Assembly: GCA_009914755.4 (NCBI GenBank)
Contig: CP068257.2
Span: 9,888,001 to 9,952,000 of the forward strand
Direction of reading: 5' to 3'
DNA: 64,000 nt
Origin: the human T2T-CHM13v2.0 reference genome, Homo sapiens
Shown here: positions 3,581-31,900 of the stretch, in pieces
Numbering within the stretch: the stretch's first letter is position 1
How the letters are laid out: the number at the start of each line of letters is the position of its first letter
Made by a program: the position numbers and the translations under genes
Notes under the pieces: model-generated
What the model was told of the DNA's origin: nothing
Database searches by the model: none
Seen by the model: only the letters and a program-made list of their open reading frames with translations

Positions 3581-3582
3581 AA

Positions 3583-10407: not shown

Positions 10408-11084
10408 CAGTAATCTTAACTATGATTTTAGATTCAAAGCAAAATGAGCAGAATCTATGTCTATGTATACTAATGTCCAATTTGCCAATAGAAATGTTAG
10501 AGTCTAGAAACCATTATTTTAGCAGTTGTTATAAAAGTTTATATCTTAATGTTAAAAAATATCCTCAAAACTCTTCCTAAATTGTACTTTAACTAGAGTA
10601 GAAATGAGTCAATCATTAAATGGATATTACATATTAAGGAATTCTTGTTAATTTTACAAGGTCTGATAATGACATAGTATAATATATAAAAGTAAAGAAC
10701 AAAACAGGTGATGAGAGAAAGACATACCACGTTAAGAAATGTACATTTATGTACTTATGGGTAAAATGATGTAATATCTGTGATTTTACTTAAAATTTTC
10801 TAGGAAAAAAGTGTGTGGGGGTGTGTATGTAAATGAAACGAGATTGGCAAAATATTGATAATTAATACTGGGGCCTGGGCACATGGGGGACTCATTATAT
10901 TCTTCTATGTATGGATTGGTTTGCATATTTCCATAATAAAAAGGTTTTAAAGATTCAGTTTATTCCACTGCACAAAACTTTCTATTCAACTAAACATTTC
11001 ATGCTTTTCATAGTCAATTTTAAAATACATAAAATTTTAGCTAAAATGAAGTTGGACCCTTATCTAACACAAAATACAAAAAGT

Positions 11085-11960
11085 AACTTAAAATAGACAA
11101 AAGACCTAAATGTAAGAGCTAAAGTTAGAAAACTTTTAGAAGAAAATGGGAAAAGCTTCACGACAATGAATTTGGCAATGATTTCTTATATAGAACATCA
11201 AAGGCACAGGCAACAAAAGAAAACGTAGACAAACTGGACTTCATCAGAATTAAAAATTTTGTGCATTAAGAACCACTGTCAACAGAGTAAAAGGCAACCC
11301 AGGGAATGCAGAAAATATTTGTAAACTACAAACATTATAAGGAATTAATATCCAGACTATATAGAGAACTCCAGAAAGACAAATACCACAATTCAAAACT
11401 GGGCAAAGGATATATACGGACATTGCTCCAAAGATGATATTCAAATGGCCAATAAGCACTGGAAAAGACGCTCAACATCACTAGTCAGTAGGGAAATATA
11501 AATCAAAACCATAATGCAATACCACTTCACACCCATTAGAATGCTATTATCAAAACAAACAAAAAACAGAAACCAAGAAAACCAGAAAAACAAATGTTGG
11601 GCAGAATGTGGTAAACTGAAACCCTGTGCAATGCTGGTGGGAAGGTAAAATGGTGCATGTATTTAAATGCCACTGAAGTGTACACGTAAAAATAGAAAAA
11701 CTGGCAAATTCAATATTCTGTATATTTTACCTCCACACACACACGAAACCAATGGAGAAAAAGAAAATTAATCAAAATTAAAATTTCAGCTCAAGACGAT
11801 TAGAAAGCAAGAAAACTAATGACAATTTAGATGATTGAGTTATAGCTACAATTGTTTTCAGTAAAAGAAATAATGCTTTATTCAGAATCATTATGAACAG
11901 TGTTATGATTAGCAAGTCTTTCCTATAAATGTAATAGTTAATAATTTTAAATTAGTTTTA
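11085..11960 (+). mobile_element. L1 fragment: ORF2 C-terminal region and 3'UTR (ancient L1M/L1P type)
   Basis: Translates to L1 ORF2-like peptide (…KAQATKEKIDKLDFIKIKNFCA…MANKHWKRRSTSLVSREI*IKTIMQYHFTPIRMLLSKQ…). Canonical L1 motif …gaaatgcaaatcaaaaccacaatgagatacca…-like sequence is present. Confidence 0.75.
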
Positions 11961-12635
11961 TTTTGTATGTTCTATGCCACGTTCACCAAGTACACTTAAT
12001 ATTAAATAAAATCATTTAAATATAATATCTCATTAATGTTTTTCAAATGAAGAAGAAATTTCTGGCAGACAAGCTCCTCAAAATTTTCACCCTCTGTCCA
12101 AGTAGGGAAATGATACAATAACATTACTTATAATATTGTTAACTGAAAAAGAAATTACTTTGAGCAGATGCCAGTATTTTTTCTCAATGGGATTTCAAAG
12201 AATAAGAAACCTAAACACAGTATCATCAAGAATTACATGTGAGCATTCTGCCTACTTTCTGCAAGTGGCCTACATTCAACCTTTGGAGGTATGCTTATAC
12301 GATTAACGACTAAAGTAACATAACATGATACTTAACGATGCCACTTGGGGATTTTAGCTGTGAAAAAGCAGTGGATCCTAAGAACAGTGGGCACTGAAGT
12401 TGCCTGTCTCTATGTCAGGTGACAGCTCCAGCTGTGTATATGCTGCAGACACGCAAGCTGAATTTAAGAGAATCCGCTCTAAAACATTACTTGCTATTTA
12501 GACATATGCTTAAAGTTATTTCCTTTTAAACCTTAGGCAGATGGTGAAATATTCCCACTGGGTTGTCTCACAATGCATAACAAAGCTTTTCACATATTTT
12601 CACATAGTTGAGAATGTTTCCATATGTCTGGCATG

Positions 12636-12914
12636 TTTGTAATCCAGCACTTTGAGAGGTGGAAGCAGGAGAATCACTTAAGCCCAGGAGTTCAAAATCA
12701 GCCTAGGCAACAAAAGGAGACCCCCATCTCTACAAAAATATTAAGAAATTAGCTGGGTATGGTGGTACAAGCCTGTGGTCCCAGCTACTCGGGAGTCTGA
12801 GGTGAGAGGATTGCTTGAGCCTATGAGGTCGAGGGTGAACTGAACCACGATCATGTCACTGAACTCCAGCCTGAGCAACAAAGCAAGAGCCTGTCTCAAA
12901 AAAAAAAAAAAAAA
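12636..12914 (+). mobile_element. Alu SINE (slightly 5'-truncated) with poly(A)
   Basis: tgtaatccagcactttgagaggtggaagcaggagaatcacttaagcccaggagttcaaaatcagcctaggcaac…ccagcctgagcaacaaagcaagagcctgtctc(A)17. Confidence 0.9.
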
Positions 12915-14458
12915 GTCCCGATGCACCAGTGTCATGGCTGATAAGATACTCCCAGGGCACCCTCATTCTAGCATCAAGGCTGTGTGACAGCTCACCTTAC
13001 CTTCTGACTAACCCAGTGCTTCTGTGCTAAGGGCCCCCTTAAAACTTTACCTTCATTATGTTCTTGGCACAAAGGAATGATATATCTTAGATTTGGAAAT
13101 GGAATTTTCTTCCCAATCTTACTGTAGTCTAAGTACCCTTCACAGACCTCCTATTAACCCATAGCTTACTTAGCTTTAGTTCCTGGGTAAATCAAATCTG
13201 TGTTTTGCAAACTGTGATGTTGTAAGTTCAATTGCTTCTGAATCTAGCAGAGCTCAGTGAAACTCTTTGCTTACAGACATGCTCATTTTTATTAATGTCA
13301 CACATGGTATTCTCCATGTTAGAGACAGAATTTCTTTCATCCTATTTACCAATCCCTTCAGATCCTTGTGAAGAACCAACAGAACAGCTTTAAAAAATTA
13401 AAAGGTTTTTTTCTTTCCCTTCACAAATAGGCACATGCTTACTTATACAGCAAGTTTAGAAAATCCACAATGCAAAAGAAGGTGGAAGGACAAAGAGAAA
13501 AAGGTGCAGAAGGACTTCCTCTTCCAGCCAAGATGGACTTGCCCTCCCACAATGACCAATGAGAAAACTGAAACTGGATAGAATATTAGAGAGAACTGTT
13601 TCCAGGGATTGGAACACAGGCAGAACAGGACTGTGATATTTGAGAACAGGAAAACACAGGAGGCAAATCTCACACATACTTCTGTTTTCTGCCCAATGGC
13701 AGTTTCTTGACCATGCAGAGAGAGGTAGAGACGTCCAAAAATGAGGCAATGCCACTTTCTCTAAGCTGAGAGTCTTGCAGTGCTAAGGTGTTTGGAGTTT
13801 ATAGAATAAGGTACTGGAGAAGAGGGAACTACATACAGGTGAGGTCTCAAAAGAGTATGCAAAAGTTCTCGGCAGGTCTGGGGCCAAGGGCTGGGGGGAG
13901 TGCATAGAGCAGGCAGGCTCCACAAGGCCTCTGCAGAGTGGCTGGCACTTCTGAGGGCTGACTGGAGATGCCAGAGATCACACAAATTTGGGACATAGCA
14001 GAGTGGAGAGAACTCACAAAGTATACCTAGAACATGTGGCTGAGGGCCATGAGGATGAATCTTTCCTAGAGTAAGAGTCACTGTCTAAGTCTACAGGCAA
14101 AAATCTAATAAATAAGCACAAACTAACAAAGGCCCAGGTTTGACAGGAGAAAAAGGGTGGTCAAATAATTTAACTAGGCATCAAGACATTTAACAGAAAT
14201 AAAGGTTAAAATGTTATGAAAATGAAAGACTGAATTTATAAGGAAGACTTAACAATCCTAAATGTGTACACATGACAGCTTCAAAATACTTTAAGCAAAA
14301 ACTGCTCAAGTAGACAGATCTAGAATTACAGCTGGAGATTTTAACATAACTCTCAATACATTGTATGATGAGTAAAAAATCAGTAAGGACACAGAAGATG
14401 TGCATAGTCACAAGCTCCACCAGTTGATCTAATTGACATCTGAAGAACACTGAACCAC

Positions 14459-14817
<359 letters not shown>

Positions 14818-15176
14818 TCACTAAGAAAGTATGTTCCCCAACTATACTATAAATGAATTAAAAATCAGCAACAATAACATACCTATAATATCTCTATGTA
14901 GTAGAAGTTAAAAACAATACACTTTTAAATAACTCAAATGTCCATGAAAAGAAAAATCACAAGGAAAACTAGATGATATTTTGAATGGAATGAAAATGAA
15001 AGCAAAATGTGTTGACTATAACTAAAACTAACATGGAATGAAGATATCTAACTGCTTTCTTAAGAAGCAATAAAACAAGAGCAAAGTAAACTGAAAATAA
15101 GTTAAAGGGAGGAAAAAAAAGACTGAAAATAAATGAAATAAAAAATGAAAAAAAGACAAAATAAGTAATACTGAAA

Positions 15177-15386
15177 CAGGCTTGTCCAACCTGAGGACTG
15201 CATGTGGCCCAGGCCAGCTTTGAATGCAGCCCAACACTAATTCATAAACTTTCTTGAAACATTATGAGATTTTTTTTCCTTTTTTTTGGCTCATCAGCTT
15301 ATCATTAGTGTATTCTATGTGTGGCCCAAGACAATTCTTCTCCTTCCATTGTGGCCCAGGGAAGCTAAAAGATTGAATACCCCTGT
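15177..15386 (-). mobile_element. MER20 (hAT-Charlie nonautonomous DNA transposon), copy 1
   Basis: gcttgtccaacctgaggactgcatgtggcccaggccagctttgaatgcagcccaacactaattcataaactttcttgaaacattatgagattttttt…gtgtggcccaagacaattcttctccttccattgtggcccagggaagctaaaagattgaatacccctg matches the MER20 consensus as I recall it. A second copy at 57573-57790 is about 80% identical. Confidence 0.75.
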
Positions 15387-15940
15387 ATTAAAAGATCATT
15401 AATGATCTAAAATAAGTGATCTTATAAAGAATTGATAAACCTCCAGCTAGACTGACTGATCCAGGAAAAAATAGAAAAAACACAAATTACCAATATGAAG
15501 AGACTGCAATACAGATTAGATTATAAGACATTAAAAGGATATTAAAGGAATATTCTGAACAATTTTATGCCAATAAATCCAACAACTTGGATGAAATGAA
15601 ATTTTCCTAAAAGACACAAATTACCAAAACTGACAACAGAAAAATCTGAAAATATCTCTTAAAAAAATCTTAATTCTCCCACAAAAAACTAAAACCAAAC
15701 CAAATAAAACCCTCTAGGTTCAGATGACTTCACTGGTAAATCCTATCAAACATGTAAAGAAGAAATCATACCGATCTTACACAGCTATTTCCAAAAACAG
15801 GGAAGGAGACAGCACTTCCCATCTAATTTTATGACACCAAATATCACCTTGACACCAAAATCAAATAAAGTCATTACAAGAAAAGGATACAAAAGTCCAA
15901 TATCTCCCATCAACACCAATATAGAAATCTTAAAAACAAA

Positions 15941-15962
15941 CAAACAAACAAACAAACAAACA
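15941..15962. repeat. (CAAA)n microsatellite
   Basis: aaacaaacaaacaaacaaacaaacaaaca. Confidence 0.85.
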
Positions 15963-17204
15963 CCTAGAAATCAACTCTAGCAATATCCCTAAGGACAACG
16001 CACCACAACCAAGTGGGGTTTATCTCAGGGATGTAAAGTTAGTTTAAAAGTTGAAAATGAAACCAGTGTAATTCATTGGTAGAATGAAGAAAGTTGTATA
16101 ATCATCTCAACAGATACAGAAAGAGGCATTTGACAGCATTAAACATCGTTATGATAAAAATTCCCAAGAAACAAAGTTTAAAAGGAATGTCCTCATTTTG
16201 ATAAAGGTTTTCTCTGCAGATCCTACAGACATCATACCATACGGTGGACTACTGAAAGCTTTCTGCCTAAGCTTGGGAACCATGCAATTATGCCCATTCT
16301 CGTGACTTCTGTTCAACACTATGGAAGTCCTGGACAGTATAATAAACCAATAAAAAGCAAGACAAGACATAAGGATTAGAAAGTAAGAAGTAAAAGGATA
16401 GTCAGAGGAAACGTAATTGCAAATTTCTTAGTTTTCTATATAAACAAACCACTAGAAGTAATAAGTGAAACAGACTTATCAGACTACAAAGTCACTATAC
16501 AAAAATCAATTGTGTATCTACATACTGAGAGCAAACAACTGGAAAATCAAATTCAAAAGTTCTACTGACAGTAGTGTAAAATTATAAAATACTTAAGAAT
16601 AAATTTTTAAACAGGCATGCAAGACTGCTACATTGAAAATTATTAAATATTGAGGCCGAATATTAAGATGTTGATTCTCCCCCAAAATAATCTGGACTCA
16701 ATACAATTCTCCGAGAAAATCCAGCAGGCTTCACTGTAGAAATTAATAAACTAATAGTAAGTACAAAGTTGGAGGACACACACTATCTGATCTCAAGACT
16801 TCATGAAATTATAGCAATCAAGATACATATACCAATAGAAAAACAGACAATCGATAGAACAGAGTCCAGAAATAGACCAATACATAGAAATTTAATTGAT
16901 TTTTTATGAAGATACGAAAATGGATTAATGCAAAAAGGGAACACCAGTGGTGCTGGCACAAATGGCTATCAAGATGTTAAAAAAAAAAAAAAGTAAATCT
17001 TGAAACCAAACTCACACCATGCGAAAAATTAATTTGAGATTAATGACAGATTTAATGTAAAAACTAAAACTATGAGGCCTCTAAAAGACAATGTAGAATA
17101 TTTTCCTGACTTTGAGGTAAGCAAAGATGTCTTAGATCAAAGAGATAAGGTAGTAACCATAAAATAAAAAAAATAAACTAAGCTTTATAAAAATTAAAAG
17201 CTTC

Positions 17205-17468
<264 letters not shown>

Positions 17469-18819
17469 TTAAGAAACGGAAAAGGTAAAACTCAGACTGG
17501 CAGAAAAGACTGATAACTCCATCGACTCTTGGCAAAGATGTAACTGGAGAACTAATTCATTGTTGGTGGGAGGGTAAAATGGCACAACCACTTTAGAAAA
17601 CTTTTGGCAGTTTCTTATATAGTTAAACATTCACCTATCCTTTGATACAGCAATTCCACATCTACATATCTACCCTAGATATTTATGCTAATTTTAGAAT
17701 TATTGATTTGCCATTTCAAAAGTAATGATTCTTCCAGAATATTAGCTTTATACCATTCCATATTTTATATATTTTTTAAGCTACTATAAATTATGAAGAT
17801 TCAAAATGCAATTTGCCAAGTTTTAAAAGAGAAAAAAAAGTACGGAAATAACTAAGTGGAAAACAGGCTGGTTAAGTGTGTTTGGGTCAGTTTATTTCTA
17901 GTATCATTTACAGGCTACCCTGATATTGTATTTAAAATTTTCATTCATTTCAGAGTTCACAAAATAATGATTTTTCCTGTGAAGATACTTCGTTTAAGAG
18001 ACAACTGACTTCTACAACTAAAATGTATACATGTTCAAAGAAAATAACTTGTAAAATATATTTGGTTGAATAACATTTTCATTAAGCCTTTAAAATTATG
18101 TATCAGAATATCTGGCTATTAAGCAGTCTAATGGTGCCTACTAAGTCAGAGAGTTGTAACTCTTCTCTCCTGTGCTCTGTTCTGATAATGAAGTAAAGGC
18201 ATCAGTAGCATCTACTGTGCTAAAGAATAAATGGAATTTACACCTGTAGGTAATATTTAAGCACTTTAAGACAAATATGAATACATCATAAATTTCTAAC
18301 TAGGAAAATATTTTCAATGAGATCTCAAGAAATGTTAACTTTTTTCAGAATAAAGCACTGAAAACTGACTCACCAACATATCAAACTGGGTTTCTTCATC
18401 TTCTTCTCTTTTTCTCTTCTTATCTTTCCTCTTTTTCTTCTTACTACAGGACATTATTTATACAGATGAGTTTAGGTATATTGATTTGTGTGATAAATAA
18501 ATATCGTAAGATTGAAACTTGGAAGTCTTTTAAGCTGTTTCATTTATAAATTATTGATTTAGGAAGACTTACATTGCTATGCCCTCTTAAATACAATACT
18601 GAGAAGTTGCTTCAGGCTTTGTACATATTATGTTAAAGTTCAAAGCAGATTGTAGAGCCACACTGCCACATTTTAAATCTTGATTCTGTCACTTCTTAGC
18701 TCTGTGATTTTTGGAAAAGGTACTGAACCTCTCTGGCAGTCAGTTTCCCCACTTAAAAAATTAGGATAATAACTTAACTCTTAAGGCTATTGTGAGGATT
18801 AAGAGGTAATATGTATCTT

Positions 18820-19440
18820 CACGCATTGCTGGTGGAAATGTAAAATGGTGCAGCATCTACAGGAAACAGTTTGTGGTTCCTCAAAAAGTTAAAGAGTTAC
18901 CATATGACCCAGCTATTTTACTCCTAAGTATGTATACCCAAGGGAAATGAAAACATAACCCCACAAAAATACTTACATAAGAATATTCACACTAGCATTA
19001 GTCACAATAGTCAAAAAGGGGAAACAACCTAAATGTTCATCAACTGATGAATGGATGAACAAAATGTCACATCCATACAATGGAATACTATGCAGCCATA
19101 AAAAGGAACAAGTGCTACAACAATGATGGACCTCAAGAATGTTATAAGTGAAAGAAGCCAGATACAAAAGGCCACATGTTGCATGATTTCTTAGGAAATA
19201 TTCAGAATAGGCAATTTCACATAGATAGCAGACTAGTGGTTGCCAAGGACTAGGAGAGAGGGAGGATGGGATGTGACTGCTTTAATGGGTAGGAAGAGAT
19301 TTCCTTCTGAGATGATGAAAATGCTGAGCAACTAGACAGTGGTGAACCTCTTGAATATGTACTAAAAACCACTGACTGTACAAAAGGGTGAATTTTATAA
19401 TTATGAATTACATCGTAATAAAAAAATAAAAACCCAAGAG
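18820..19440 (+). mobile_element. L1 3' end (L1M-type 3'UTR), independent of the upstream L1
   Basis: cattgctggtggaaatgtaaaatggtgcagc…accatatgacccagctattttactcctaagtatgtatacccaagggaaatgaaaacat…caactgatgaatggatgaacaaaatgtcacatccatacaatggaatactatgcagccataaaaagg…gtggttgccaaggactaggagagagggaggatggg…ataaaaaaataaaaa matches a classic L1MA/L1MB 3' end. Confidence 0.85.
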
Positions 19441-20299
19441 CGATTTGAAAAAAGTTAATGTGCAAAGTGCCTACAACAATTTCTTGGCGCATTGAAAGTG
19501 CTATATAAGCATTAATTATGATTACTACGATAATCTTAAGACACTCTTGTCTGCATTTTCATCATAAAGTTTTCAGAGGATAACTCACCACTCCTCACAG
19601 GAAATTCACAGAGTAAAAATCTCACATTCATTCAGGATATACCTGCCATTTATTCTGGCATCTTCATGAGGCCAGACTCCTTGAGAGGGTTCTCAAAGGC
19701 AGTGGTTTCAGCTCACTCTTTGATACTTTCCATCTCGCCTAACAATATCAAAACCTCTGTTTATCATGGAGACCAGGAGGAAATGCTCAATATTTGTATG
19801 TACAGTCAACCTCAGGCAAATCTGCCAGTTAAAAAAGAAGCGAGGATATGAATGCACAGGTATTTTTCTCCTAAAGAGCTAAAAAATTACCACTACGAAC
19901 TCCTCCTCACATTTGGCTCAATTTATTTACTGCATATACGTTCTCTAATTTAATCCTCAGAGTCTTCTAAATGTATAAAAAATGGTCTGAAAGTATAAAT
20001 GTGTAAACGAAGGTTTAAAGATACTTGATCTCTTAATGAGTAAATGGAAGTTCAGACATATTAACCAATTTGCCACAAATTACAAAATTAGTAAATGACA
20101 GAGTGCAGGTTCCATCCCATATCCCTATCAAAGCCTATGTACACCTCAACCACTGTGTGATTCATCCTGGTTTCACTCTACATACTAGCTTAGAAAAAAA
20201 TAATCAATAATTTTTCCAGGAAGAGACAATGGAGAAAAGAATAATCCCTAGTAAACGAAGTTATTATCATGAACTACAAGATCAGACTAAAGCAGACCC

Positions 20300-21500
20300 A
20301 CCAGGCAGAGGCCTGGAGAGATGCCTCAGCGGACCCAAACTCGTGGGTACGGGGCCACAGGTCACCCGCCCATCTATCCTGTTTCCAGGGTCGTCAGCGC
20401 GGGAGGCTGCCCCTCTCTGCACAGGCGCCACGAACCGCGGTCCGGCCTCCGTCCATCCCAGACAGGGTCAGGGCGAAACCTGGGAGGCCACGAAGCCAGC
20501 TCTTCGCACCACGGCTTCCACCGGATCCGCGGGGGTGGAGTGCATCCGAAAAGAACCGAGGAGGCTCCCACCGGAGCTGCAGGACCCAGCTCTTCGCCTT
20601 GGTTCCCTTGAGCACAAGCTTGGTAGACTTCACAAAAGAGTACTCGGCCATGGCTCCGGAAGACTTCTGCGCGGAGAGGCTGAAGCCGGCTCAGGACAAG
20701 TATGTGACCTGGAGCAGCACCAGGGCGGGGAGGAACAGAAGTGGAGGCGAAGTAAACACTTCCTGACAGCGTACGTCTGTCCAGAACCCGCCTTCATCTT
20801 CACCCAAACGCTGAATGGCTGAGATTTCCACTTCCGGGTTTCTGCCACGGAGCTACAGCGGCCTCAGAGGGCCGAAAGGTGTCCGCACGCATCTGCTCCC
20901 TGGCTCCCTCTCGAGGAGCCCCTGAGGATTTGTGCCTCCCAGAGGTGGGGAAAGCCCGCCCGAGGCGCCGGTGCTGACGGTGGCGGGACTGCCGGGCTCG
21001 CTGTGGAACCGCCTCCCGCTAGAGCTGCGGGCTGGCGACGGTCCCCGCGGGGGCGGGAAGCGGCTTAGGCTGCCCTCGTTGGCCTGCGGCGGCGAGTCTG
21101 GAAGCGGGGGCCACTCGTGCACGGGTCACTCGGGGCTGTGCCTCGCGCAACTGTGTGTGCAGGAAACAAGCAGAAAATACCCTAAAATAGAATGAAGCGC
21201 CATGTTGAGGGCCGCGGACTTCGCGAGTGCTGTGGCAATGTGGGCTAAGGTGGAGAGTTATGGTGGCGCATGTTACAGGCTCAGGGGTCAGGAAGAAGCC
21301 TAATCGTGGAGGCGGCATCTGAGGAGGGTCTTGAACGCTGGGCAGGCTTTTGCCCGATAGAGATGGAGGAAGCTAGTCCTGTCTGCTGGAGGAAACAGGG
21401 CAGAGGCGAGGAGGGAGCCTTGCAGCGCTGGTGTGAGGAGCCGCGAGCAGGCCAGGCCTGTAAAGCAGAGTGAAGGGAACCAGGATAGAGAAGGCAAATC
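20300..21500. promoter_or_regulatory. CpG island (~1.2 kb, GC-rich, CpG not depleted); candidate possibly bidirectional promoter with first exon(s)
   Basis: Dense CpGs (…gcgggaggctg…ccgcggtccggcctccg…ggatccgcgggggtg…gcgcggagagg…cggtccccgcgggggcgggaagcggc…tggcctgcggcggcgagtc…) against a CpG-poor, AT-rich surrounding. GC boxes GGGGCGGG (~21047) and GGGCGGGC on the minus strand (~20953). Palindromic gccATGGc at ~20648-20655 gives a Kozak-context ATG on each strand. Plus-strand donor CAG|GTGAGA at ~21545. Confidence 0.75.
20394..20651 (-). other. Candidate first coding exon or ORF start on the minus strand (MAEYSFVKSTKLVLKGTKAKS…), unverified
   Basis: 85-aa ORF in the six-frame track starting at a perfect Kozak ATG inside the CpG island. 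The ORF is inflated by GC-rich no-stop sequence. Possible donor G|GTGGGA about 85 nt downstream of the ATG. Confidence 0.15.
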
Positions 21501-21611
21501 GGGGTCCTGTGGTCACTGAAGAATTTGAATGAAATCAGTAAACAGGTGAGAGGGATCCATCGCAAGAGCATGGGATGAAAGGAGGAGTAGTCCACGGTGA
21601 TTCCTCCGCAG

Positions 21612-21680
21612 CGGTGGGTATTATTAATCGCGTATGTGACACCAAAACGGTGGGTATTATTGATAGCGTATGTGACACCA
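21612..21680. repeat. 33-34 bp tandem duplication
   Basis: ggtgggtattattaatcgcgtatgtgacaccaaaac / ggtgggtattattgatagcgtatgtgacaccaaaac. Confidence 0.85.
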
Positions 21681-23879
21681 AAACCACCCCACTCAAGTTG
21701 TGGCTCTTTCCCTAAAGTAGAAAACAGAAACCAGTTGGGTTCCAAGCATCCACGAAGATCTTACTAAATTCGTGATCCCTGGTGGCACCATGGAGTCAGG
21801 ATTGGCTCATCTCAAACCTGACTCAGAAACAAAACCATCTCAATGTGCAGAGATGAACGTCCTTACCTGCTATCATATTTTCTGGTGTTTTCACAGTGCT
21901 GCGCTTCCTAATCCCCATTCCACCGCAATCCACATGCCATGATGCCTAGAGGCATTAACAAAGGAGACACACAGGGGCTCCTCACGTTGGCTTTCCATGG
22001 TTTTGATGAAAATCTCAGTTTCCTCATCTCATACAATGTGGTTAGTAATAGTATCATTTAGGGTTGAAGAATTAAATGGTACGAATTATATAGGGTGCTT
22101 ATAATAACCTACATGGAAAATGCCTAGGATATGTTAGCTATGCTCATCACCAACATCATTATATGATGGTAATAATCAGATAGTTAGGAAGGGCGATGCC
22201 AAGAAAATGGATACATGCTCTTGGGAATGAATGTGGAGAGATCAGAAGGTCAAGAACAAAGCTGTACAACATGTCTGCAGTAAAGGGATAGAGAAAAGAA
22301 AGGCTATAAAAGAAGGAATGAAACAAAGTTAGAGTAAAATTATAAAATCAAAGCTAAGGACAATTTCCAGAAAGGGTAATATCATTTAATATCATAGAGG
22401 TTTAGGAACACAAGATGGAAAAATGGCCTGTGGGTAACTGACATTGAGGTAGTCTTTAGGGAAGCTCCATTTCCGATAGAGAAGTAGACAGAAAGTCAGC
22501 TTGAAGCAGGGACTAGGTGAAGAAGCTGTTGGCTGGTCGCATGGGGATATAAATAAGGGATCGCATATGCCATATTTCTGGGTTTCTTTCTTTCTTGCCC
22601 AGCCTCTATATATGCCTAGAGTTTGGCGAAAACTTACAAAAAATACAAATGAAACCAATTTCGTTTGTAGACTCAAATACAATGCTTTGTGTTAGAATCA
22701 AGATAAATTCATGACTCTCCCTTCTATTGTCACCGTCAGTTTTGAAATTAAACATCAGCTTTTCTTCTTCATTAAAATCATTTTCAACTCCTTCCAGGTG
22801 TTGATGGTTTGGGGGAGTTACATAAGCAGTCAGGTCTTGATGAGTAGAGGAGGAGGGAACAAACAATTTCAGCAAAGGAAAAATTCTGAAATTCTGCTCA
22901 TATTTTTCTCTAGTAACTTTCCTATGTTTGTGAGGATATTCAGTCATAAAGATCCTAGTGAAATTTTTTTCAAGCTTGACTAATCGTAATCACTGTGGAC
23001 TTTTGTTTAAAATGTGTATTCCCAGGCCTCTCACGTGCTGATTCTGATTCAGGAGATCACGGATGGGACTCAGAATACATGTGTTTGAGAAGTACCACAA
23101 GTGGTTCTTATGGTCAGGCAAATTTGGGAATCTAACCAGGAATTTATGTTTTTATGACTGGCAGCTAGAAAAGATTCCTAGAGTCTTTGCTTTTTGAAAA
23201 TAAAATATTTCTTTTTTAAAAGGAAAATTGTATGACTAGATACAACATTTATACATGTGGCACATGTACTATACTGTGTGCTTTTGTCATATTTACAGTT
23301 AAAGATGTGTAAGAACACTCTGAGAAAAATTATCTATTAAATGCAAAGAGGGGTAAGTCAGGGTGGGGGAGAAATGGGACTGGTGTGCTTATTGTTGCTA
23401 AAAGGTAGAAAAGCCAGAATGATAGCCATCTAAGGTTGCAAATAGCACACTGTAAGTTGAGGGAGCTTCACAATCATGTCTGAAACCTTCTTTGATATAC
23501 TGAGTTGTAAACAGTGGCTTTGGACAAGATTTGAGGGAGAAACCAACTATGCTTTAAAGTGTTCATTTAAAAGACTTTAATTAAAGGAAAGTCTTTGTAT
23601 TTACTTAAGCTAATTTAACTTCAGGACTTTAACAAATTACTAGCCCTTAACCTCTTAAAAATTGTCTTTCATTTCAAATGAAAGTTTAAGATGGCCTTTA
23701 CGTTGGATTGGTATACTTGTGCGAAGACTTAACAGCAAGGTAATGTACATTTCTAAATGTTTACTTCTTAATTTTGCTGGAAGAAATATACTATTCAATT
23801 GATTATTTTTAAAGCAAAGTAAAACCATTTATTTTGACAAGTGACACTGTATTTTCCCAGTTTTCAGGTGGCAGAGATT

Positions 23880-25450
23880 AGGCTTAACATCACTAATCAT
23901 GAGAGAAATGCAAATCAAAACCAAAACGAGATACTATCCTATACCAGTCAGAATAGCTACTATTAAAAAATCAAAAAACAACAGATCTTGGGAGGCTGTG
24001 GAGAAAAGGGAACATTTACACATAATTGGTGCGAATGTAAATTAGTTCAGCCACTGTTTAAAGCAGTTTGGAAATTTCTCAAAGAATTTAAAATAAAATT
24101 ACCTCTCAAGCCAACAATTCCATTACTGGTATATGACTCAAAGAAAGTCAGTTATTCTACGAAAAAGACATATGCACTTGCATGTTCATCGCAGCACTAT
24201 TACAATAGCAAAGACATGGAGTCAGCCTAGGTGCCCATCAACAGTGGATTTGATCAATAAAATGTGGTACATCCACACAGTATTAGGCCATTCTTGCATT
24301 GCTATGAAGAAATACCTGAGACTGGGTAACTTATAAGGAAAAGAGATTTAATTGGCTCATAGCTCTGCAGGCTGTACAGGAAGCATGGTGACGGCATCTG
24401 ATGGCACCTGTGGTGTCTCCAGGGAGCTTTTACTCATGATGGAAGGTGAAGAGGGAGTAGGCTCATCACATGGCCAGAGCAGGAGCAAGAGAGAATGGGA
24501 GTGGGGGTAAGTACCACACACCCTTACACAACCAGATCTCGAAAGAATTCGCTATCACAAGGACAGTATCAGGTCATGAGAGATCCACCCCCATGACCCA
24601 AACACCTCCTACCAGGCCCCACCTCCAACCCTGAGGATTACATTTCACCATGAGATTTATAGGGGCCACCTTCCAAACGATTTCACACACCATGGAATAC
24701 TATGCACCCATAAAAATAACAAAATCATGTCCTTTGAAGCAACATGGATGCAGCTGAAGGCCATTATCCTAAGTAAATTAATGCAGGAATACAAAACGAA
24801 ATACCACATGATCTCAATTATAAGTGGGAGCTAAACACTGGGTACTTATGGACATAAAGATGGAAAGAATAAACACTGGGACTACTAGAGGGGAGAAGGA
24901 GGAAGGCAAGGTTTGACAAACTAACTATTGGGTACTATGCTCATGTATTAATCTGTTCTCACACTGCTATATAGAACTACCCGAGACTGGGTAATTTATA
25001 AAGAAAAGAGGTTTAATTGACTCACAGTTCCACAGGCTGTACAGGAAGCATGGCTGGGAGGCTTCAGGAAACTTATAATCATGGCAGAAGGTGAAGGGGG
25101 AAGCAAGGCACTTTCTACCATGGCAGCAGGAGAGCAAGTGAGCCGGGGGGATGTACCATATGTTTAAACCATCAGATCTCATGAGAACTCACTTACCATG
25201 TAAGAACAGCAAGGGGGAAGTCTGCTCTCATGAGCTAATCACCTCCCACCAGGTCATTCCCCCTACATTGGGAATTATAATTCAACATGAGATTTGGGTG
25301 GGGACACAGAGACAAACCATACCAAATGAGCATCTGGATGACGGGATCATTCATACCCCAAAACTCAGCATTATGAGATATACCCATGTAACAAACTGAC
25401 ACATGTACCCCTGAATGTAAAATACAAGTTAAAATTATTTTCAAAATAAA
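23880..25450 (+). mobile_element. L1 3' end (older primate L1PA/L1PB type) containing two diverged copies of an internal ~400 bp 3'UTR segment
   Basis: …catcactaatcatgagagaaatgcaaatcaaaaccaaaacgagatactatcc (ORF2: LIIREMQIKTTMRYH). …atatacccatgtaacaaactgacacatgtacccctgaatgtaaaatacaag is the canonical L1 terminus. Segments …cctgagactgggtaa(c/t)ttataa(g/a)gaaaagag… occur at ~24300 and ~24965. Confidence 0.85.
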
Positions 25451-26145
25451 TAAATTAATGAATAAATAAATATGATTAAATGAAATTAAAATTTTGAATT
25501 AAAATATTTGAGAATGATTTCAGCTTGACAGTTATGTAAGTTATGTAAATGGAAACAGTGAGTTCTGTAGGGTTCGGATCAATTGCACTATCTGTACTAA
25601 GTTGATGTCCAGTTGTTTGGATGAAAAGAAAAGAGGAGAAACATATAGATCAAACAGAAAAAAAAATGGACAAGTTTTTATGATAGCAAAAAGAAGAATG
25701 GAGGAAATAGGACTGAGGTTATAGTGATTGATAGATATTAATAGATGACTAAGTCAAAAGCCACTGGTTGCAGAAAATATTGACTAATTTTGTTTTATTC
25801 CAGTCAGACAACAAAATCTTATAACCTGCCTCTAGAGAAAACCCTTTTAGCCCTGTAATTATGTTTATTCCAAGCACCATTCCATTCATTAAGTAGTGTA
25901 TAGGGTGATTAATAAGTGAATTATTCACAGAATTAGGACAGAATTTTTGAGTATTTCAGGATATTAATACTATAGTCAATGAATTAAAATAAAATTTGAC
26001 TAGAGGTGTGATCACCATGAATGCCATGTTGGTATCTTGTTAGATTTGGCAACCAAAAGTTGACAAATTTATTAATAAAATAAACGTTCGTTGATGATTA
26101 ATTTACATTTAGTAAACATGCTCTTTCTTCTTCCTTCCCTTTCTT

Positions 26146-26166
26146 ATTCATTCATTCATTCATTCC
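26146..26166. repeat. (CATT)n microsatellite
   Basis: attcattcattcattcattcc. Confidence 0.85.
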
Positions 26167-26616
26167 AACAGAGCAGTGACTTTCATTCTAAGATTCCCAG
26201 AATCCTAAGAATTCTTGAATGTCATCATAGGGAGCCAGGTGTGAGGAGTCACAAATGTTGTATTTAATACTTGAAAAATCTCAAAAAGTTATATATTTAC
26301 ACCAGAAAAAGCTATACAGGTTTTAAGTTATATATATATAGTTGAATACTTTTTATTTCTATCCAGAAATAAGTCATTAGAGTTAATAATGTTGATTATT
26401 TCATACTGACCTAGTAGGTAGCCTTTATATATCATTCATTACTTATTAGTAAAATAAGAACCCCCCCAAAATTACAAAATAAATATATTTTGTGGGGTTT
26501 TCTTAAGTCTGTTGAAACATAAAATCAGAAGAGAGGATTAAAAGTAATCCTTGATTGTTAAAAAGGCAGGGAACTACTAACTTAGAAAATTGTATGAAAA
26601 CAGCAAGATATATACA

Positions 26617-26800
26617 TGGTCCTCAGACCAGCTGCCTGTTTTAATAAAGTTTTATTGGAGCACATCCATGGATCTATTGTGCTTTCCTGCTACAATGGTA
26701 GAGTTGAGTGGTTGCTATAGAGACCGTATGGTTCGTAAAGCCTAAAATATTTATCATCTGGTCCTTTATAGCAAAAGTGAACCCAGTTTTAGAACATTCA
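26617..26800 (-). mobile_element. hAT-type MITE fragment (MER30-like)
   Basis: cagctgcctgttttaataaagttttattggagcacatccatg…ctacaatggtagagttgagtggttgctatagagaccgtatggttcgtaaagcctaaaatatttatcatctggtcctttatagcaaaagt resembles the MER30-family consensus (…gtaaagggccagatagtaaatattttaggctttgcgggccatacggtctctgtcgcaactactcaactctgccgttgtagc…). The family name is from memory. Confidence 0.5.
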
Positions 26801-27070
26801 CTTTTCAAATTAGGATACAGTGGATGCTGCCTTAACTGACCTCCACTTAACTGATTTGCAATCAGCACTTTCTGGTACCCCTGTACAACTTATTGACTGA
26901 TGTCCACTGTAAACTGAAAGCCTTTGAGCTACTTTTAATGCCTGTACATTTCTCCTTCCATTACAGAAATTGTATAGTTTCTAAGAGGAAGCTGTGTTGA
27001 TTCCTAAATATGTTTACACCATTTGTTCTTGTTCTTGTAACTATGCGATTTAATTAAATATTATGTTGAG

Positions 27071-27416
<346 letters not shown>

Positions 27417-28914
27417 CTAAATGTGTTGGAAAAATGAGAAACTCAAACAGTTGCTGTCAGCTTAACTGTTGGCAAGACAACTAGAAACAAATGGGAAAAA
27501 TTGTGTAATCTAGGATTTCAGATTGCTTTACCCCAGTTGTCTTCACAGAAAATGAACAAGAAATCCATGACAACGTATCATTGGCATAGTTTCCACAAGA
27601 AACTCCACTCTGAATCCGTGCAAGGCTTTGACCTTGTCATCAAAATTCTGGCAAATTTATTTACACATGTCTTTTAAATTAAAGTTGTTTTAAGGACTTA
27701 CATCTAATACTTCTTATGATTCCTCCATCTAACTTAAATTTGTGATTAATCTGTTTATTACTGGTCCCAATCTGATTGAATAAGGGGGTTTCTACCGTAT
27801 TTGCTAACCAAAAGTTTAATTTGACGAAGATGGAATTATAAATACAATAATTCCAGTTTAAAGAATTAGAATGGTAAAGGTTAATACAATTTAGTATGCC
27901 TAAAAATCACTAGAAAAGCTTACTAACAATGTAAATTCTTGTGCCTTCAGCCTGAGATTTTGATTCAATAGGTCTAGCATGAGACATAGGAATCTGGATT
28001 TTTAGGAATGATAAAGGAAAATTGCTTAAAATAGGGTAAATTATGACTTACAAATATAAAATGAACACTTGTCTAAGATTTTTAACTCATTTATTTAATG
28101 AGGGAGCCAGTAAGATGTTATACTAAGTTTTATGGAAAGAGCCACACATATCTAGGCACTAAGGAACACTGAAATAAATTTGCTTGATAGGTTCAAAACT
28201 GACTTCTTGATGGAAGGTGGAAAAAGGAAAATTAATTATACTTCCACCAAAATCAATCATTTGCCTGTCTATAGACAAGAATATTTGCATTACTATCAGT
28301 AATCTACAACTAACAGAATTGCAAATAACAAAGAAAACAAAAGGCACAGAGACCCTATAGAAACAGATAACCCAGGTTATTCTAGACAAGGATGAGATTT
28401 CCATTAAAGACACTCAGTGGTAATTTCGTTGGTCCATCTTAAAATCTTTCCATTTTCTCCTGAAACAAATTGCTCAAGCAATTCAAATACAATGAATGGG
28501 GTCAGTGGGTCACACCTGGAGAAATCATTTTCTAACCTATAACCAAGACTGTTGAATTACTCCCTTCACTGGAAATAATAAAATATTACCACATAAATTC
28601 GTATTATGATAATGGCCCACTATGAATGATTTGGTGTTCTTAATTTTCTTAAGATTTATTAATATTTCTGAAGTAATTACTAAATGCCAAGCAATATATT
28701 TTCTAATTTAATCTTTCATTGACTTTTACTTTCACTTCAATTGAGCTACTCACTTTCATGGCTATAAACTTAACTTTTCAATAACTTAAAAATTGATTTC
28801 TAATGTTATAAACTTAAATGTTCCACTCTGTGACATGCTCTTTCAGACTCTCTCTTCCTTACTGCCAACTCACCTTCTCTTCTATCTCTTCCAGTGCCCC
28901 AGTATCTTAACTCT

Positions 28915-31900
28915 TCCATTTTCTTTTTTCTTTTATTAAGTGGATACATGATAATTTCACATGTTGATGGGGTACAATGTGGTATTTTGATACATGACAC
29001 ATTGTTAAAACCTCTCCTCCCTATCTTTCCCAGTCTGGTAACCACTCTTCTACTCTCTATTAGATCAGTGTTTTTGGATTTCACATAAGAATGAGATCAT
29101 GTGATATTTGTCTTACCGTGGTTAGCTTATTTCACTTACCACAATGTCGTCTATGCTCATTCATGTTGTCACAAGTGACACGATTTTACCCTTTATTATA
29201 GCCAAATGTGCATGTGATATAGTTTGGATATTTGTCCTGACCCATATCTCATGTTATATTGTAATCCCCACTGTTAGAGATTGGGCCTGGTAGGGGCTGT
29301 TTGGGTCATGGAGGTGGATCCCTCATGGCTTGGTGCTATCCTCATGATAGTGAATGAGTTCCCAAACTTCCTGACTAGTCAAGCAGATGTTGGCAGTATG
29401 CTCCCTGTACAGCCCATGGAACCAGGAGCCAATTATGTCTCTTTTCTTATAAATTATCCAATCTCAGGTATTTCTTTATAGCTATGCAAGAATGACCAAA
29501 TACAGCATATATGCCACATTTTCTTTCTCCATTCATTCATTGATGGACACTTAGGTTGATTCTAGGCTATTGTGAATAGTGCTGTAATTAACCTGAGAGT
29601 CCAGAAATCTCTTTGACATACTGATTTAATAATCTTTGAATATATACCCAGTAGTGGGATTGTTGGATTATGTGATAAGTCTATTTTTAATGTTTTTGGA
29701 AGTTATATTGTTTTCCATAACAGTTGCTCTAATTTACATTTCCACCAACAGTGTATGAAAATTCCCCTTTCTTCACATCCTTGCCAGCATTTGTTATTTT
29801 TTGACTTTTTCATAAAAAGCATTCTAAGCAGGGTGAGAAGATATCTCACTGTGGATTTGACTTGCATTTCTCTGATTATTAGTGATGGTGAGCATCTTTT
29901 CGTATACCTGTTGGTGACTTTTTTTGTCTTATTTGGAGAAATGTCTATTCAGCTGTCTTGACTATTTTCTAATCCAATTATTTGTATTTTTGCTATTGAG
30001 TTGTTTGGGTTTTCTATAAATTTGGGATATTAACCCCTTATGAAGTGAATAGTTTGCAGATATTTTCTCCCATTTTGTAGGTTGTGTCTTCACTCTTGTG
30101 ATTGTTTCCTATGCAGTGCAGAAGTTTTTATTTGGTGTAATCACATTTGTTTATTTTTGCTTTTGTTGTTCATGACTTTCAATGTCTTTTCTAAAAAGTC
30201 CTTGCCCAGACCAATGACATATAACATTTCACCTAAGTTTTCTTCTACTAGTTTCATAGTTTGGGGTCTTACATTTAAATATTTAATTTATTTTGAGTTG
30301 ATTTTTGTATACGATGAGAGATAGGGGTCTACTTTCATTCTTTTGTATGTGGATATGCACTTTCCCAGCACCATTTGTTGAAAAGACTGTCTTTTCCCAA
30401 TTGAATGTTTGCACCTTTGTCAAAAATAAGTTGCATGTAAATATGTGGTTTTATGCCTGGGCTCTCTATTTTTGTTCCACTGGTCTACATGCCTGTTTTT
30501 ATGCCAATACCATGCTGTTTTAGTTAAGATAGCTTTGTGATATATTTTGAAATTAGATAGTGTAATACCTCTAGCATTGCTCTTTTTGCTTAAGATTTAT
30601 TTGGCTATTTGGGGTGTTTTGTAGTTTCACATGAATTTTAAGATATTTTTTAATATTTGTGAAGAATGAAATTGGAAATTTGATAGAGATTATATTGGAT
30701 TTATAGATTGATTTGCATAGTATGGTCATTTCAACAATGTTAATTCTTCTAGTCCATGAACATGGGATATCTTTCTATTTATTTTAATTTTTTAATTGTT
30801 TTTATCAATGTTTAATAATTTTCATCTTTCCGTGGCTTAATTTACTTGTAAGTATTTTGTTTTTTTAATAGCTATTTTAAATGGGATTACTTTCTTGATT
30901 CCTTTTTCAGATAGTCTGCTATTGGTGTATAGAAATGTTACTGATTTTTTATGTTGCTTTTGTATCCTGAAACCTTATTGTATTCATTTACTATTTCTGA
31001 TTCTCAGTGGCATATTTAGGGTTTTTTACATATATGATCATGTCATCTTCAAAGAGGGACAATTTGACTTTTTTTTTCCAATTTGGATGCCTTTTATTTC
31101 TTTCTCTTACCTAATTGTTCTGACTAGGACTTCCAGTACTATGTTGAAAAAAGTGATTAAAGTGAACATTCTTGTCTTGTTCCAGATCCGAGAGGCAAAC
31201 CTTTCAAGTTTTCACAATTCAGTACAATGTTGCCTGTGGATTATCACATATGGTCTTTATTTTATTATGTTCTTTTATAACTAATTTGTTAAAAGGTTTG
31301 ATCATAAAAAGATGTTTAATTTTGTCAAATGCTTTTTCTGCATCTATTGAAATGATTATATGTTTTTTATCCTTCATTGTTTAATATGATGTATCACATT
31401 TTATTGATTTACAGGTATTAGACTATCCTTACCTCCCCGGGTAAATACCATTTGATTATGGTGGATAATCTTTTTAATGTGCTTTTGAAATATCATTGCT
31501 AGAACTGCTGGTTTTGAATGTTTGCATCTATGTTTATCAATGATATTGGCCTGGAGTTTTCTTTTATTTGCTGTTCTTGTCTCATTTTGGAATCAGGAAA
31601 TGCTGTCTTCATAGAATGAGTTTGGAAGAGTTCCCTCCTTTTCATTTTTTTAAAATAATTTGTATAAATTTTTTAAATGTTTTGTAGAATTTGTCAGTGA
31701 AAACCACCAAGTCGTGAACTTTTCTTTCTTCCTCTATTTTTTTAGAGACAGGGTCTCACTCTATCACTGAGGCTGGCATACAGTGGTGGAGTCATAGCTG
31801 ACTGCAGCCTCAAACACCTGGTCTTAAGTGATCCTCCTGCCTCAGCCTCCTGAGTACAAATGCACACCACTATACCTGGATAATTTTTATTTTTATATTT

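What the first reader, a model, noticed from the sequence alone, without database searches (positions are those of the whole stretch)
20300..21550. Orphan CpG island in an L1-rich desert, with a palindromic GCCATGGC start on both strands and a strong plus-strand splice donor: candidate bidirectional promoter and first exon of an unidentified gene or lncRNA
This ~1.2 kb segment is the only CpG-undepleted, GC-rich sequence in 64 kb of AT-rich repeats. It contains Sp1-type GC boxes in both orientations (~20953, ~21047). At ~20648-20655 a palindrome GCCATGGC gives a Kozak-optimal ATG on each strand. The plus-strand ORF starts MAPEDFCAERLKPAQDK and is followed by …caa|gtatgtgac, a donor-like site. 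The minus-strand ORF starts MAEYSFVKSTKLVLKGTKAKS…. Further downstream on the plus strand, …atcagtaaacag|gtgagagggatcc at ~21545 is a near-consensus 5' splice site. CpG islands that persist amid decaying repeats are normally functional promoters under selection. The minus-strand N-terminus loosely recalls the M-x-x-Y-x-x-V-x-K-x-x-L-K-L-K-G start of FAM32A/DUF1754-type proteins. That recollection is from memory and weak.
Basis: partly seen in the sequence, partly recalled or inferred. Interest (0 to 1): 0.55.

Follow-up and report, generated by a model that had tools for sequence, protein, structure and literature searches.

The report
Promoter island of an FRG1 pseudogene copy
The CpG island is the inherited promoter and first exon of a duplicated, disabled copy of the muscle-disease-region gene FRG1, a kind of copy already described in the complete human genome, so it is real but ordinary.

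Summary
Window 20300-21400 is the only stretch of the 64 kb that meets CpG-island criteria (GC 0.62-0.64, CpG o/e 0.70-0.75, against 0.22 for the whole window).

It is not an orphan island. The minus-strand ATG at 20651 starts exon 1 of an intron-containing genomic copy of FRG1 (FSHD region gene 1). Exons 1-7 lie on the minus strand between 20651 and 856. The window is colinear with monkey FRG1 loci from position 2 to at least 30946.

The copy is a pseudogene:
- the exon-1 splice donor is GT>CT;
- exon 2 has a 1-nt deletion, also present in a gorilla paralog;
- exon 3 has TGG>TGA and has lost one codon.

The island keeps 62% of the ancestral CpGs, against 22% in the gene body. Its non-CpG sites change at the intron rate. 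So it has been protected from methylation rather than held by selection.

The plus-strand 'ORF' is the antisense of the FRG1 5' UTR. The plus-strand donor motif occurs no more often than chance. A divergent transcript is plausible, because FRG1-DT exists at the parent locus, but I could not test it. The FAM32A recollection is wrong.

Published work already reports 23 human FRG1 paralogs, nearly all with upstream CpG islands and some expression. Verdict: already known, low interest.

The parts
20300..21400 (.). CpG island: the inherited FRG1 promoter, 5' UTR, exon 1 and start of intron 1
   Evidence: It is the only stretch passing GC>=0.5 and o/e>=0.6. It aligns base for base with the region around the FRG1 start codon in Rhinopithecus and Aotus. 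Five sister copies keep it with o/e 0.70-0.80.
20590..20651 (-). FRG1 exon 1 coding part (MAEYSFVKSTKLVLKGTKAKS; Y6F relative to FRG1)
   Evidence: Found by tblastn and alignments. The 5' UTR extends upstream towards about 20830; that extent is inferred and the TSS was not mapped.
20588..20589 (-). Destroyed exon-1 splice donor: AAGAG|CTGGGT, where both monkeys have AAGAG|GTGGGT or GTGAGT
   Evidence: The same C is present in all five sister copies.
20570..20571 (-). Candidate substitute donor CCG|GTGGGA, 18 nt downstream and in frame. It arose by C>T at an ancestral CpG and is absent in copy L008.
   Evidence: Sequence reading, monkey alignment and the L008 difference at 20570. Its use is inferred and not shown.
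18374..18443 (-). FRG1 exon 2 with a 1-nt deletion (GATATTGTTG > GATA-TGTTG) that shifts the frame; splice sites intact
   Evidence: The deletion is shared with the gorilla paralog L003.
9341..9463 (-). FRG1 exon 3 with TGG>TGA (stop at 9455-9453 in the FRG1 frame) and a 3-nt deletion removing codon E86
   Evidence: Both lesions are absent from gorilla L003.
8503..8560 (-). FRG1 exon 4 (T97M), splice sites intact
6595..6709 (-). FRG1 exon 5 (R105S, G122E), splice sites intact
4239..4343 (-). FRG1 exon 6, splice sites intact
856..947 (-). FRG1 exon 7 (T187A, C204H); the last coding exon lies beyond the window start
2..30946 (-). Minimum extent of the duplicated FRG1 genomic segment: gene body plus at least 10 kb upstream
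   Evidence: Colinear blastn match at 88-90% to Rhinopithecus FRG1 locus L001, up to the end of the fetched flank. Window 1-19686 is 94-96% identical to gorilla paralog L003.
20829..20837 (-). ETS-type motif CCGGAAGTG about 180 nt upstream of the ATG, kept in Rhinopithecus and one mismatch in Aotus
   Evidence: Its role as a core promoter element is inferred.
20955..20961 (.). GC box (CCCGCCC / GGGCGGG)
   Evidence: The block GCCTCGGGCGGGCTTTCC is conserved in Rhinopithecus and has one mismatch in Aotus.
21050..21057 (.). GC box GGGGCGGG
   Evidence: It is present in Rhinopithecus with one change and lies in a gap in Aotus.
21543..21551 (+). Plus-strand donor-like site CAG|GTGAGA, a possible end of a divergent first exon
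   Evidence: The motif frequency is at chance level, the three-species conservation is not above neutral, and its use is untested.

Best explanation
The island is the promoter CpG island of a duplicated, intron-containing copy of FRG1, that is, an unprocessed pseudogene of the ape FRG1 paralog family.

A genomic segment holding the FRG1 gene and at least 10 kb upstream was copied from the ancestral 4q35-type locus. The promoter, with its ETS site and GC boxes, 5' UTR and start codon came with it.

The coding capacity was then lost in steps:
- first a 1-nt deletion in exon 2, shared with a gorilla paralog;
- later loss of the exon-1 donor, shared by the closest sister copies;
- in this copy, a TGA and a codon deletion in exon 3.

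The island persists because it has stayed largely unmethylated in the germ line, presumably because transcription factors still bind the inherited promoter. It has not persisted through selection on its sequence.

The most likely present activity is transcription of a non-coding pseudogene RNA on the minus strand. That RNA would be spliced from a cryptic donor or retain intron 1. Some divergent plus-strand transcription is also likely, as at the parent locus.

Shown: identity, gene structure, lesions, CpG retention and neutral substitution rate. Inferred: hypomethylation, promoter activity, which donor is used, and divergent transcription.
For: Identity and family:
- tblastn finds FRG1 exons on the minus strand.
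- 779 database hits are all named FRG1, best 93% identity.
- The conceptual translation hits PF06229 at 195 bits (cut-off 27) and PF06268.
- The window is colinear with the Rhinopithecus FRG1 locus over 2-30946 at 88-90%, and with Aotus at 82-87%.
- The island aligns to the sequence around the FRG1 ATG in both monkeys.

Pseudogene status:
- All four lesions are verified against Rhinopithecus and Aotus FRG1, and exons 2-7 also against the gorilla paralog.
- Window-specific change is 2.6% in exons against 3.55% in introns. The functional Aotus gene shows 1.9% against 7.3%. Constraint is therefore largely relaxed.

Island state:
- The island retains 53 of 86 monkey CpGs (62%), against 39 of 178 (22%) in the gene body. 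It has lost 19 CpGs by TG/CA, against 3 in the monkey.
- Non-CpG window-specific change is 3.0% in the island against 3.2% in introns.

Species and sister copies:
- A contig 100% identical to the window, and five sister copies at 98.2-99.2%, were retrieved. Three of the sister copies come from human gut metagenome assemblies. All have the same donor mutation and keep the island at o/e 0.70-0.80.

Literature:
- The first duplication dates to 24.8-27.4 Ma, and all human and chimpanzee copies other than HSA4 are pseudogenised (bioRxiv 10.64898/2025.12.22.696095).
Against: - No transcript, TSS or methylation data could be consulted, so promoter activity of this particular copy is inferred.
- The canonical exon-1 donor is gone, so normal splicing cannot occur.
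- The island is eroding (19 against 3 CpG transitions), and differences among sister copies in the core fall mostly at CpGs. This shows at least intermittent germ-line methylation.
- I could not name the paralog or its chromosome.
- Human origin rests on contigs from human gut metagenome assemblies and on one Logan contig whose organism I could not look up.
Confidence: 0.9

Rival explanations
1. The island is a bidirectional promoter whose meaningful product is a plus-strand lncRNA, a copy of FRG1-DT, with a first exon ending at the donor at 21545.
For: - A gene named FRG1-DT (divergent transcript) exists next to FRG1 at 4q35.2.
- The homologous upstream sequence is present in the window.
- CAG|GTGAGA is identical in the window, Rhinopithecus and Aotus.
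- A 50-nt block at 21287-21336 is 96% identical in all three species.
Against: - The donor motif occurs at chance frequency, 11 against 9.7 expected.
- With three-way identity of about 0.8 around it, nine conserved bases are not surprising.
- No transcript evidence was available.
- Divergent transcription at CpG-island promoters is usually a by-product.
Confidence: 0.25
2. The copy still encodes a protein: an N-terminally truncated FRG1-like protein starting at M64 in exon 3, as predicted for many gorilla paralogs.
For: - From the ATG of 'IEMDEG' onward, exons 3-7 are open, in frame and have intact splice sites.
- The FRG1-like domain match covers residues 68-209.
- Gorilla paralogs are reported to use a downstream start and to be under positive selection.
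- Exon change (2.6%) is slightly below intron change (3.55%).
Against: - My hand count of changes from M64 to V209, read from the alignments, is about 8 non-synonymous to 2-3 synonymous. That gives dN/dS near 1.
- The exon/intron difference is 16 changes against about 22 expected, which is not significant.
- A start 190 nt into a transcript that has a strong upstream ATG and an early stop would be poorly translated and exposed to nonsense-mediated decay.
- The literature states that all human and chimpanzee copies other than HSA4 are pseudogenised.
- No database protein is more than 94% identical to this ORF.
- The last exon is outside the window.
Confidence: 0.04
3. The island is a silent relic: methylated, transcriptionally dead and simply not yet decayed.
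For: - The window lost 19 island CpGs by TG/CA transitions against 3 in the functional monkey gene.
- Most differences among sister copies in the island core are at CpGs.
- The T2T paper reports 'varying degrees of methylation'.
Against: - Over the same time the gene body kept only 22% of shared CpGs and the island 62%.
- The lineage is about as old as the ape/Old World monkey split: 3.2% window-specific against 3.4% Rhinopithecus-specific change.
- A constitutively methylated island would have decayed to bulk levels in that time.
- All six copies still pass the island criteria.
Confidence: 0.12
4. The GC-rich segment is an unannotated repeat fragment (SVA, LTR) and not a gene promoter.
For: None beyond its GC richness in a repeat-rich region.
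Against: - It aligns colinearly with the FRG1 promoter and exon 1 region at the FRG1 gene in two monkeys, within a 31-kb colinear block.
- It has no internal tandem structure except a 36-bp duplication at its edge.
- Rfam finds nothing.
Confidence: 0.01

Closest known systems
Human FRG1 paralog pseudogenes (FRG1BP, FRG1CP, FRG1DP, FRG1EP... FRG1KP series) on acrocentric short arms and pericentromeres of chromosomes 9 and 20
   Same: - It is an intron-containing genomic copy of FRG1 with an upstream CpG island, disabled by nonsense and frameshift lesions.
- Near-identical sister copies exist at 98-99%.
- This matches the published description.
   Different: Nothing qualitative. I could not say which named paralog it is. 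No satellite array lies within the 64 kb. The only tandem arrays are a (CTTTC)n tract and a 31-bp minisatellite.
FRG1 (FSHD region gene 1, 4q35.2), the functional parent
   Same: - The exon-intron structure of exons 1-7 is the same.
- So are the promoter sequence, ETS and GC-box motifs, and the Kozak ATG context GCCATGG.
- The FRG1-like/fascin-type domain is encoded.
   Different: - The exon-1 donor is GT>CT.
- Exon 2 has a 1-nt deletion.
- W48 is a stop and E86 is deleted.
- Seven further amino-acid changes are present.
- 22% fewer CpGs lie in the island than in the Rhinopithecus FRG1 island, 84 against 107.
Gorilla and orangutan amplified FRG1-like genes (predicted coding, downstream start)
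   Same: The exon-2 1-nt deletion is shared with gorilla locus L003. The ORF is open from M64 through exon 7. DNA identity is 94-96%.
   Different: The window copy has an extra in-frame TGA upstream of M64, the codon deletion and the lost donor. Each lineage has about 2% private change, so the two are paralogous, not orthologous.
FAM32A / DUF1754
   Same: Only a superficial lysine-rich N-terminal pattern (x-Y-x-x-V-K-...-L-K-G).
   Different: Pfam gave no hit for the exon-1 peptide at E<=10. The full conceptual protein matches FRG1 (PF06229), not FAM32A.

Membership tests
CpG island (Gardiner-Garden and Frommer criteria) | Length >200 bp, GC >= 0.5, CpG observed/expected >= 0.6 | tested here: met
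   20301-21400 passes in every 200-nt window. Over 20300-21550 GC is 0.62 and o/e 0.70.
FRG1 gene family | Encodes the FRG1-like domain (Pfam PF06229) above the curated threshold | tested here: met
   The conceptual translation of exons 1-7 scores 195.1 bits against a cut-off of 27, and PF06268 scores 26.6 against 23.1. All 779 homologues are named FRG1.
FRG1 gene family | Exon-intron structure and flanks colinear with FRG1 loci of other species | tested here: met
   Window 2-30946 is colinear with Rhinopithecus FRG1, and also with Aotus. Exon boundaries coincide.
Functional protein-coding FRG1 | Uninterrupted 258-codon ORF with canonical splice sites | tested here: not met
   The exon-1 donor is CT, exon 2 has a 1-nt deletion and exon 3 has TGA.
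Unprocessed (duplicated) pseudogene | Retains introns and promoter of the parent, and carries disabling lesions | tested here: met
   Introns and at least 10 kb of upstream sequence are retained. The lesions are as listed above. Exon constraint is relaxed: 2.6% against 3.55% in introns, compared with 1.9% against 7.3% in Aotus.
Unprocessed (duplicated) pseudogene | A separate functional parent locus exists in the same genome | not testable with these tools
   No hominid reference genome could be searched. The literature states that the HSA4 copy is the only intact one in human and chimpanzee.
Orphan CpG island | Not at the 5' end of any recognisable gene | tested here: not met
   The island contains the start codon and exon 1 of the FRG1 copy, whose other exons follow on the same strand.
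Bidirectional promoter | Two divergent transcription start sites within about 1 kb | not testable with these tools
   There is no TSS or transcript data. The only indirect support is that a gene named FRG1-DT exists at the parent locus.
FAM32A / DUF1754 | Match to the family profile | tested here: not met
   No Pfam family hits the exon-1 peptide or its read-through ORF at E<=10. FAM32A is not among the hits of the full translation.
Known structured RNA gene (Rfam) | Match at the gathering score | tested here: not met
   There are 0 matches in the whole window.

The most novel reading that the evidence does not exclude
This FRG1 paralog, through its preserved and largely unmethylated promoter, has a present function. 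One form would be an N-terminally truncated FRG1-like protein translated from M64. The other would be a pseudogene or divergent RNA that influences FRG1 or the chromatin around it. The open frame and intact splice sites of exons 3-7 would then reflect residual constraint rather than chance.
Probability: 0.05. Interest if true: 0.5.

Novelty: already known. Interest (0 to 1): 0.12.

Why it matters
There is little new biology here. FRG1 paralogs with upstream CpG islands and some expression are already described for the complete human genome and the ape T2T genomes.

The practical value is annotation hygiene. An 'orphan' island in repeat-rich sequence turned out to be the 5' end of a segmentally duplicated pseudogene. 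Reads, variants, methylation calls or transcripts assigned here must be separated from the 98-99% identical sister copies and from FRG1 itself.

A minor point of interest is that the island has stayed CpG-rich for roughly 25 million years while its non-CpG sites drifted at the neutral rate. This is a clean example of island persistence without detectable sequence selection.

Tried and rejected
- Pfam on the two exon-1 peptides and the 85-aa read-through ORF gave nothing, which disposed of the FAM32A idea.
- Rfam over the whole window gave nothing.
- Fetching a hominid FRG1 locus failed. Monkey loci and one gorilla paralog, which stops short of the island, had to serve instead.
- A second protein search restricted to the M64-V209 ORF looked for a called protein or transcript of this paralog. 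Nothing exceeded 94% identity. This is inconclusive, because clusters are shown only by their 90% representatives.
- An exact look-up of the 85-aa minus-strand ORF found nothing on record. The 197-aa plus-strand ORF did retrieve contigs. That ORF is only an accident of GC-rich sequence, has no Pfam hit on record, and served purely as a handle.
- Conservation of the plus-strand donor was rejected as evidence, because the surrounding three-way identity is about 0.8 and the motif count is at chance level.
- The first Pfam scan of raw six-frame stretches failed on stop codons. Short X-masked pieces then showed only reverse-transcriptase remnants.

Full report
**Observation**

The segment is a true CpG island.
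- In 200-nt windows, only 20301-21400 passes GC>=0.5 and CpG o/e>=0.6.
- Over 20300-21550 GC is 0.622, with 84 CpGs and o/e 0.70. The whole window has GC 0.372 and o/e 0.224.
- The other GC-rich kilobase (38-39 kb) is CpG-depleted, with o/e 0.36.

- the palindrome GCCATGGC at 20647-20654;
- GC boxes at 20955-20961 and 21050-21057;
- the plus-strand CAG|GTGAGA at 21543-21551;
- both quoted peptides.

Two of these are not informative alone. GCCATGGC occurs once against 0.62 expected. MAGGTRAG occurs 11 times against 9.7 expected.

**What it is**

The minus-strand peptide MAEYSFVKSTKLVLKGTKAKS recalled the N-terminus of FRG1. That was a lead from memory, which I then tested.
- tblastn with the recalled FRG1 protein found further exons on the minus strand near 9.4, 8.5, 6.7, 4.3 and 0.9 kb. 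A motif search found the lysine-rich exon 2 at 18.4 kb.
- Reading each exon gave exact boundaries with AG acceptors and GT donors for exons 2-7.
- A database search with the conceptual translation returned 779 proteins, all named FRG1, with 93% best identity.
- Pfam gives PF06229 (FRG1-like domain) at 195 bits against a cut-off of 27, plus the fascin domain.
- The exon-1 peptide alone has no Pfam hit, and in particular none to FAM32A/DUF1754.

**Genomic copy, not a retrocopy**

I fetched the FRG1 loci of Rhinopithecus bieti (L001) and Aotus nancymaae (L002).
- The window is colinear on its minus strand with L001 from position 2 to 30946. That is the whole gene body present plus all 10 kb of upstream flank fetched, at 88-90% identity. 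Identity to L002 is 82-87%.
- The island aligns base for base with the sequence around the FRG1 start codon in both monkeys.
- It is therefore the FRG1 promoter island, not an orphan and not a repeat fragment.

**Pseudogene**

Four lesions stand out against both monkey genes:
1. The exon-1 donor is AAGAG|CTGGGT, where the monkeys have AAGAG|GTGGGT or GTGAGT (position 20589).
2. Exon 2 has lost one T (GATATTGTTG > GATA-TGTTG), which shifts the frame.
3. Exon 3 has TGG>TGA (9455-9453).
4. Exon 3 has lost the three bases of codon E86.

All other splice sites are intact.

The exon-2 deletion is also present in a gorilla FRG1-like paralog, L003 from T2T gorilla chromosome CM068943.1. It is therefore old. 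The TGA and the codon deletion are absent from that gorilla copy.

The chimpanzee UniProt model A0A2I3SRT9 carries the same unusual MAEYSF...AKSWVLQ, QFDML and QFMAV strings. It evidently derives from a closely related chimpanzee copy that forced the gene model past the dead donor.

**Rates**

I polarised changes using the two monkeys as references.
- Window-specific change at non-CpG intron sites is 3.2%, and Rhinopithecus-specific change is 3.4%. The two lineages are thus equally long, as expected for a duplication near the ape/Old World monkey split.
- Exons show 2.6% window-specific change against 3.55% in introns, counting all sites. That is 16 changes against about 22 expected and is not significant. 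The functional Aotus gene shows 1.9% against 7.3%.
- From M64 to V209 I count about 8 non-synonymous and 2-3 synonymous changes, by hand. That gives dN/dS near 1.
- The window and the gorilla paralog each have about 2% private change, so they are paralogous.

These figures agree with the published dating. The first duplication onto acrocentric short arms is placed at 24.8-27.4 Ma, African-ape copies coalesce at 16.8-20.9 Ma, and all human and chimpanzee copies except HSA4 are pseudogenised (bioRxiv 10.64898/2025.12.22.696095).

**State of the island**

- Of the Rhinopithecus CpGs, 53 of 86 (62%) are still CpG in the window within 20300-21150. In the gene body the figure is 39 of 178 (22%).
- The island has therefore been shielded from methylation-driven decay for most of its history.
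- It is nevertheless eroding. The window lost 19 CpGs by TG/CA transitions where the monkey lost 3. Among CpGs shared by both monkeys it keeps 38 of 56, with 12 lost by TG/CA transitions.
- Non-CpG sites in the island change at 3.0%, the same as introns. There is thus no sign of purifying selection on the promoter sequence.
- The simplest mechanism is that the inherited promoter still recruits factors that keep it hypomethylated. This step is inferred from established knowledge of CpG-island maintenance.
- Candidate elements are the ETS motif CCGGAAGTG at 20829-20837 and the two GC boxes, which are partly conserved in the monkeys.

**Sister copies and species**

An exact look-up of the accidental 197-aa plus-strand ORF (20229-20822) retrieved contigs.
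- One Logan contig (SRR29407522) is 100% identical to window 19083-22650.
- Five others are 98.2-99.2% identical. Three come from human gut metagenome assemblies and so are presumably host DNA.
- All carry the C at 20589.
- All keep the island, with 63-74 CpGs and o/e 0.70-0.80.
- Most of their differences inside the island core fall at CpGs.

With the Alu sequence at the window start, the window is hominid and most probably human.

This fits the T2T-CHM13 description. It reports 23 FRG1 paralogs on the acrocentrics and on chromosomes 9 and 20, all but FRG1KP2 and FRG1KP3 with upstream CpG islands and some expression evidence (PMC9186530).

**The plus strand**

- MAPEDFCAERLKPAQDK is the reverse complement of the FRG1 start codon and 5' UTR. 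It has no family hit, and the 'donor' after it is not conserved. I regard it as spurious.
- The donor-like site at 21545 is identical in the three primates. However, three-way identity in that stretch is about 0.8 and the motif count is at chance level, so this is not evidence.
- A gene named FRG1-DT exists beside FRG1 at 4q35.2. Divergent transcription from the copied promoter is therefore plausible but untested.
- One 50-nt block (21287-21336) is 96% identical in all three species and may be a constrained element.

**The minus strand without its donor**

- Eighteen nucleotides beyond the dead donor, a C>T change at an ancestral CpG created CCG|GTGGGA (GT at 20571-20570). The monkeys have GGGCGGG there.
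- Using it would keep the frame, giving 80 nt instead of 62 nt of coding exon 1.
- One sister copy (L008) lacks it.
- Whether it is used is unknown. The later frameshift and stop make the transcript non-coding in any case.

**Verdict**

This is a real CpG island that is correctly read as a promoter plus first exon. It belongs to a known class, the FRG1 paralog pseudogenes. Novelty: already known. Interest: low.

Noticed in passing
window 38050-38150 and 39013-39020: A promoter-like cluster on the plus strand (GGGGCGGGG, CCCACGTCAC, CCTGATTGG/CCAAT) sits at the start of a GC-rich but CpG-depleted kilobase (GC 0.57, o/e 0.36). About 900 nt downstream lies a perfect donor, CAG|GTAAGT. It could be an eroded island with an exon of a lncRNA, or repeat-derived. 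ORFs there have no Pfam hit.
   Followed up: partly
window 21612-21684: A 36-bp tandem duplication (CGGTGGGTATTATTAAT(A/C)GCGTATGTGACACCAAAA x2) lies at the distal edge of the island. The sister copies that span it (L004-L008) show no gap there. Rhinopithecus has a single copy.
   Followed up: partly
window 21287-21336: A 50-nt block about 650 nt upstream of the FRG1 ATG is 96% identical in the window, Rhinopithecus and Aotus, well above the roughly 80% around it. It may be a constrained regulatory element or part of the divergent transcript.
   Followed up: no
window 20570-20571 (minus strand): A new in-frame GT donor candidate was created by CpG>TpG 18 nt downstream of the destroyed FRG1 exon-1 donor. 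It is absent in sister copy L008 and in both monkeys.
   Followed up: partly
L003 1238-1307 (gorilla FRG1-like) and window 18374-18443: The 1-nt deletion in exon 2 is shared by the window and a gorilla paralog annotated as protein-coding. This would explain why gorilla copies are modelled with a downstream start codon.
   Followed up: partly
L007 and L005 against window 20823-21150: Differences among sister copies are mosaic. L007 has 12 differences in the 328-bp island core, and these also occur in L005. Yet L007 has 0-1 differences in the adjacent several hundred bases. This suggests gene conversion between paralogs or chimeric short-read assembly.
   Followed up: no
window 56731-57283 and 60915-61196: There is a long (CTTTC)n / (TCTT)n tract of about 550 bp with strong strand skew, and a GC-rich 31-bp minisatellite of 9 copies. 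No satellite array is in the window, although FRG1 paralogs are reported to lie near satellites.
   Followed up: no
L002 25913-26938 (Aotus FRG1 intron): An intronless 341-residue gene call with a BBL5 (BBS5-like, PF07289) domain lies inside the Aotus FRG1 gene. It is probably a retrocopy and has no counterpart noticed in the window.
   Followed up: no
window about 31-32 kb (-) and 45-46 kb (+): Degenerate reverse-transcriptase remnants (PF00078, just below the gathering score) sit in stretches of strong AT skew. This is consistent with old LINE copies in both orientations.
   Followed up: partly
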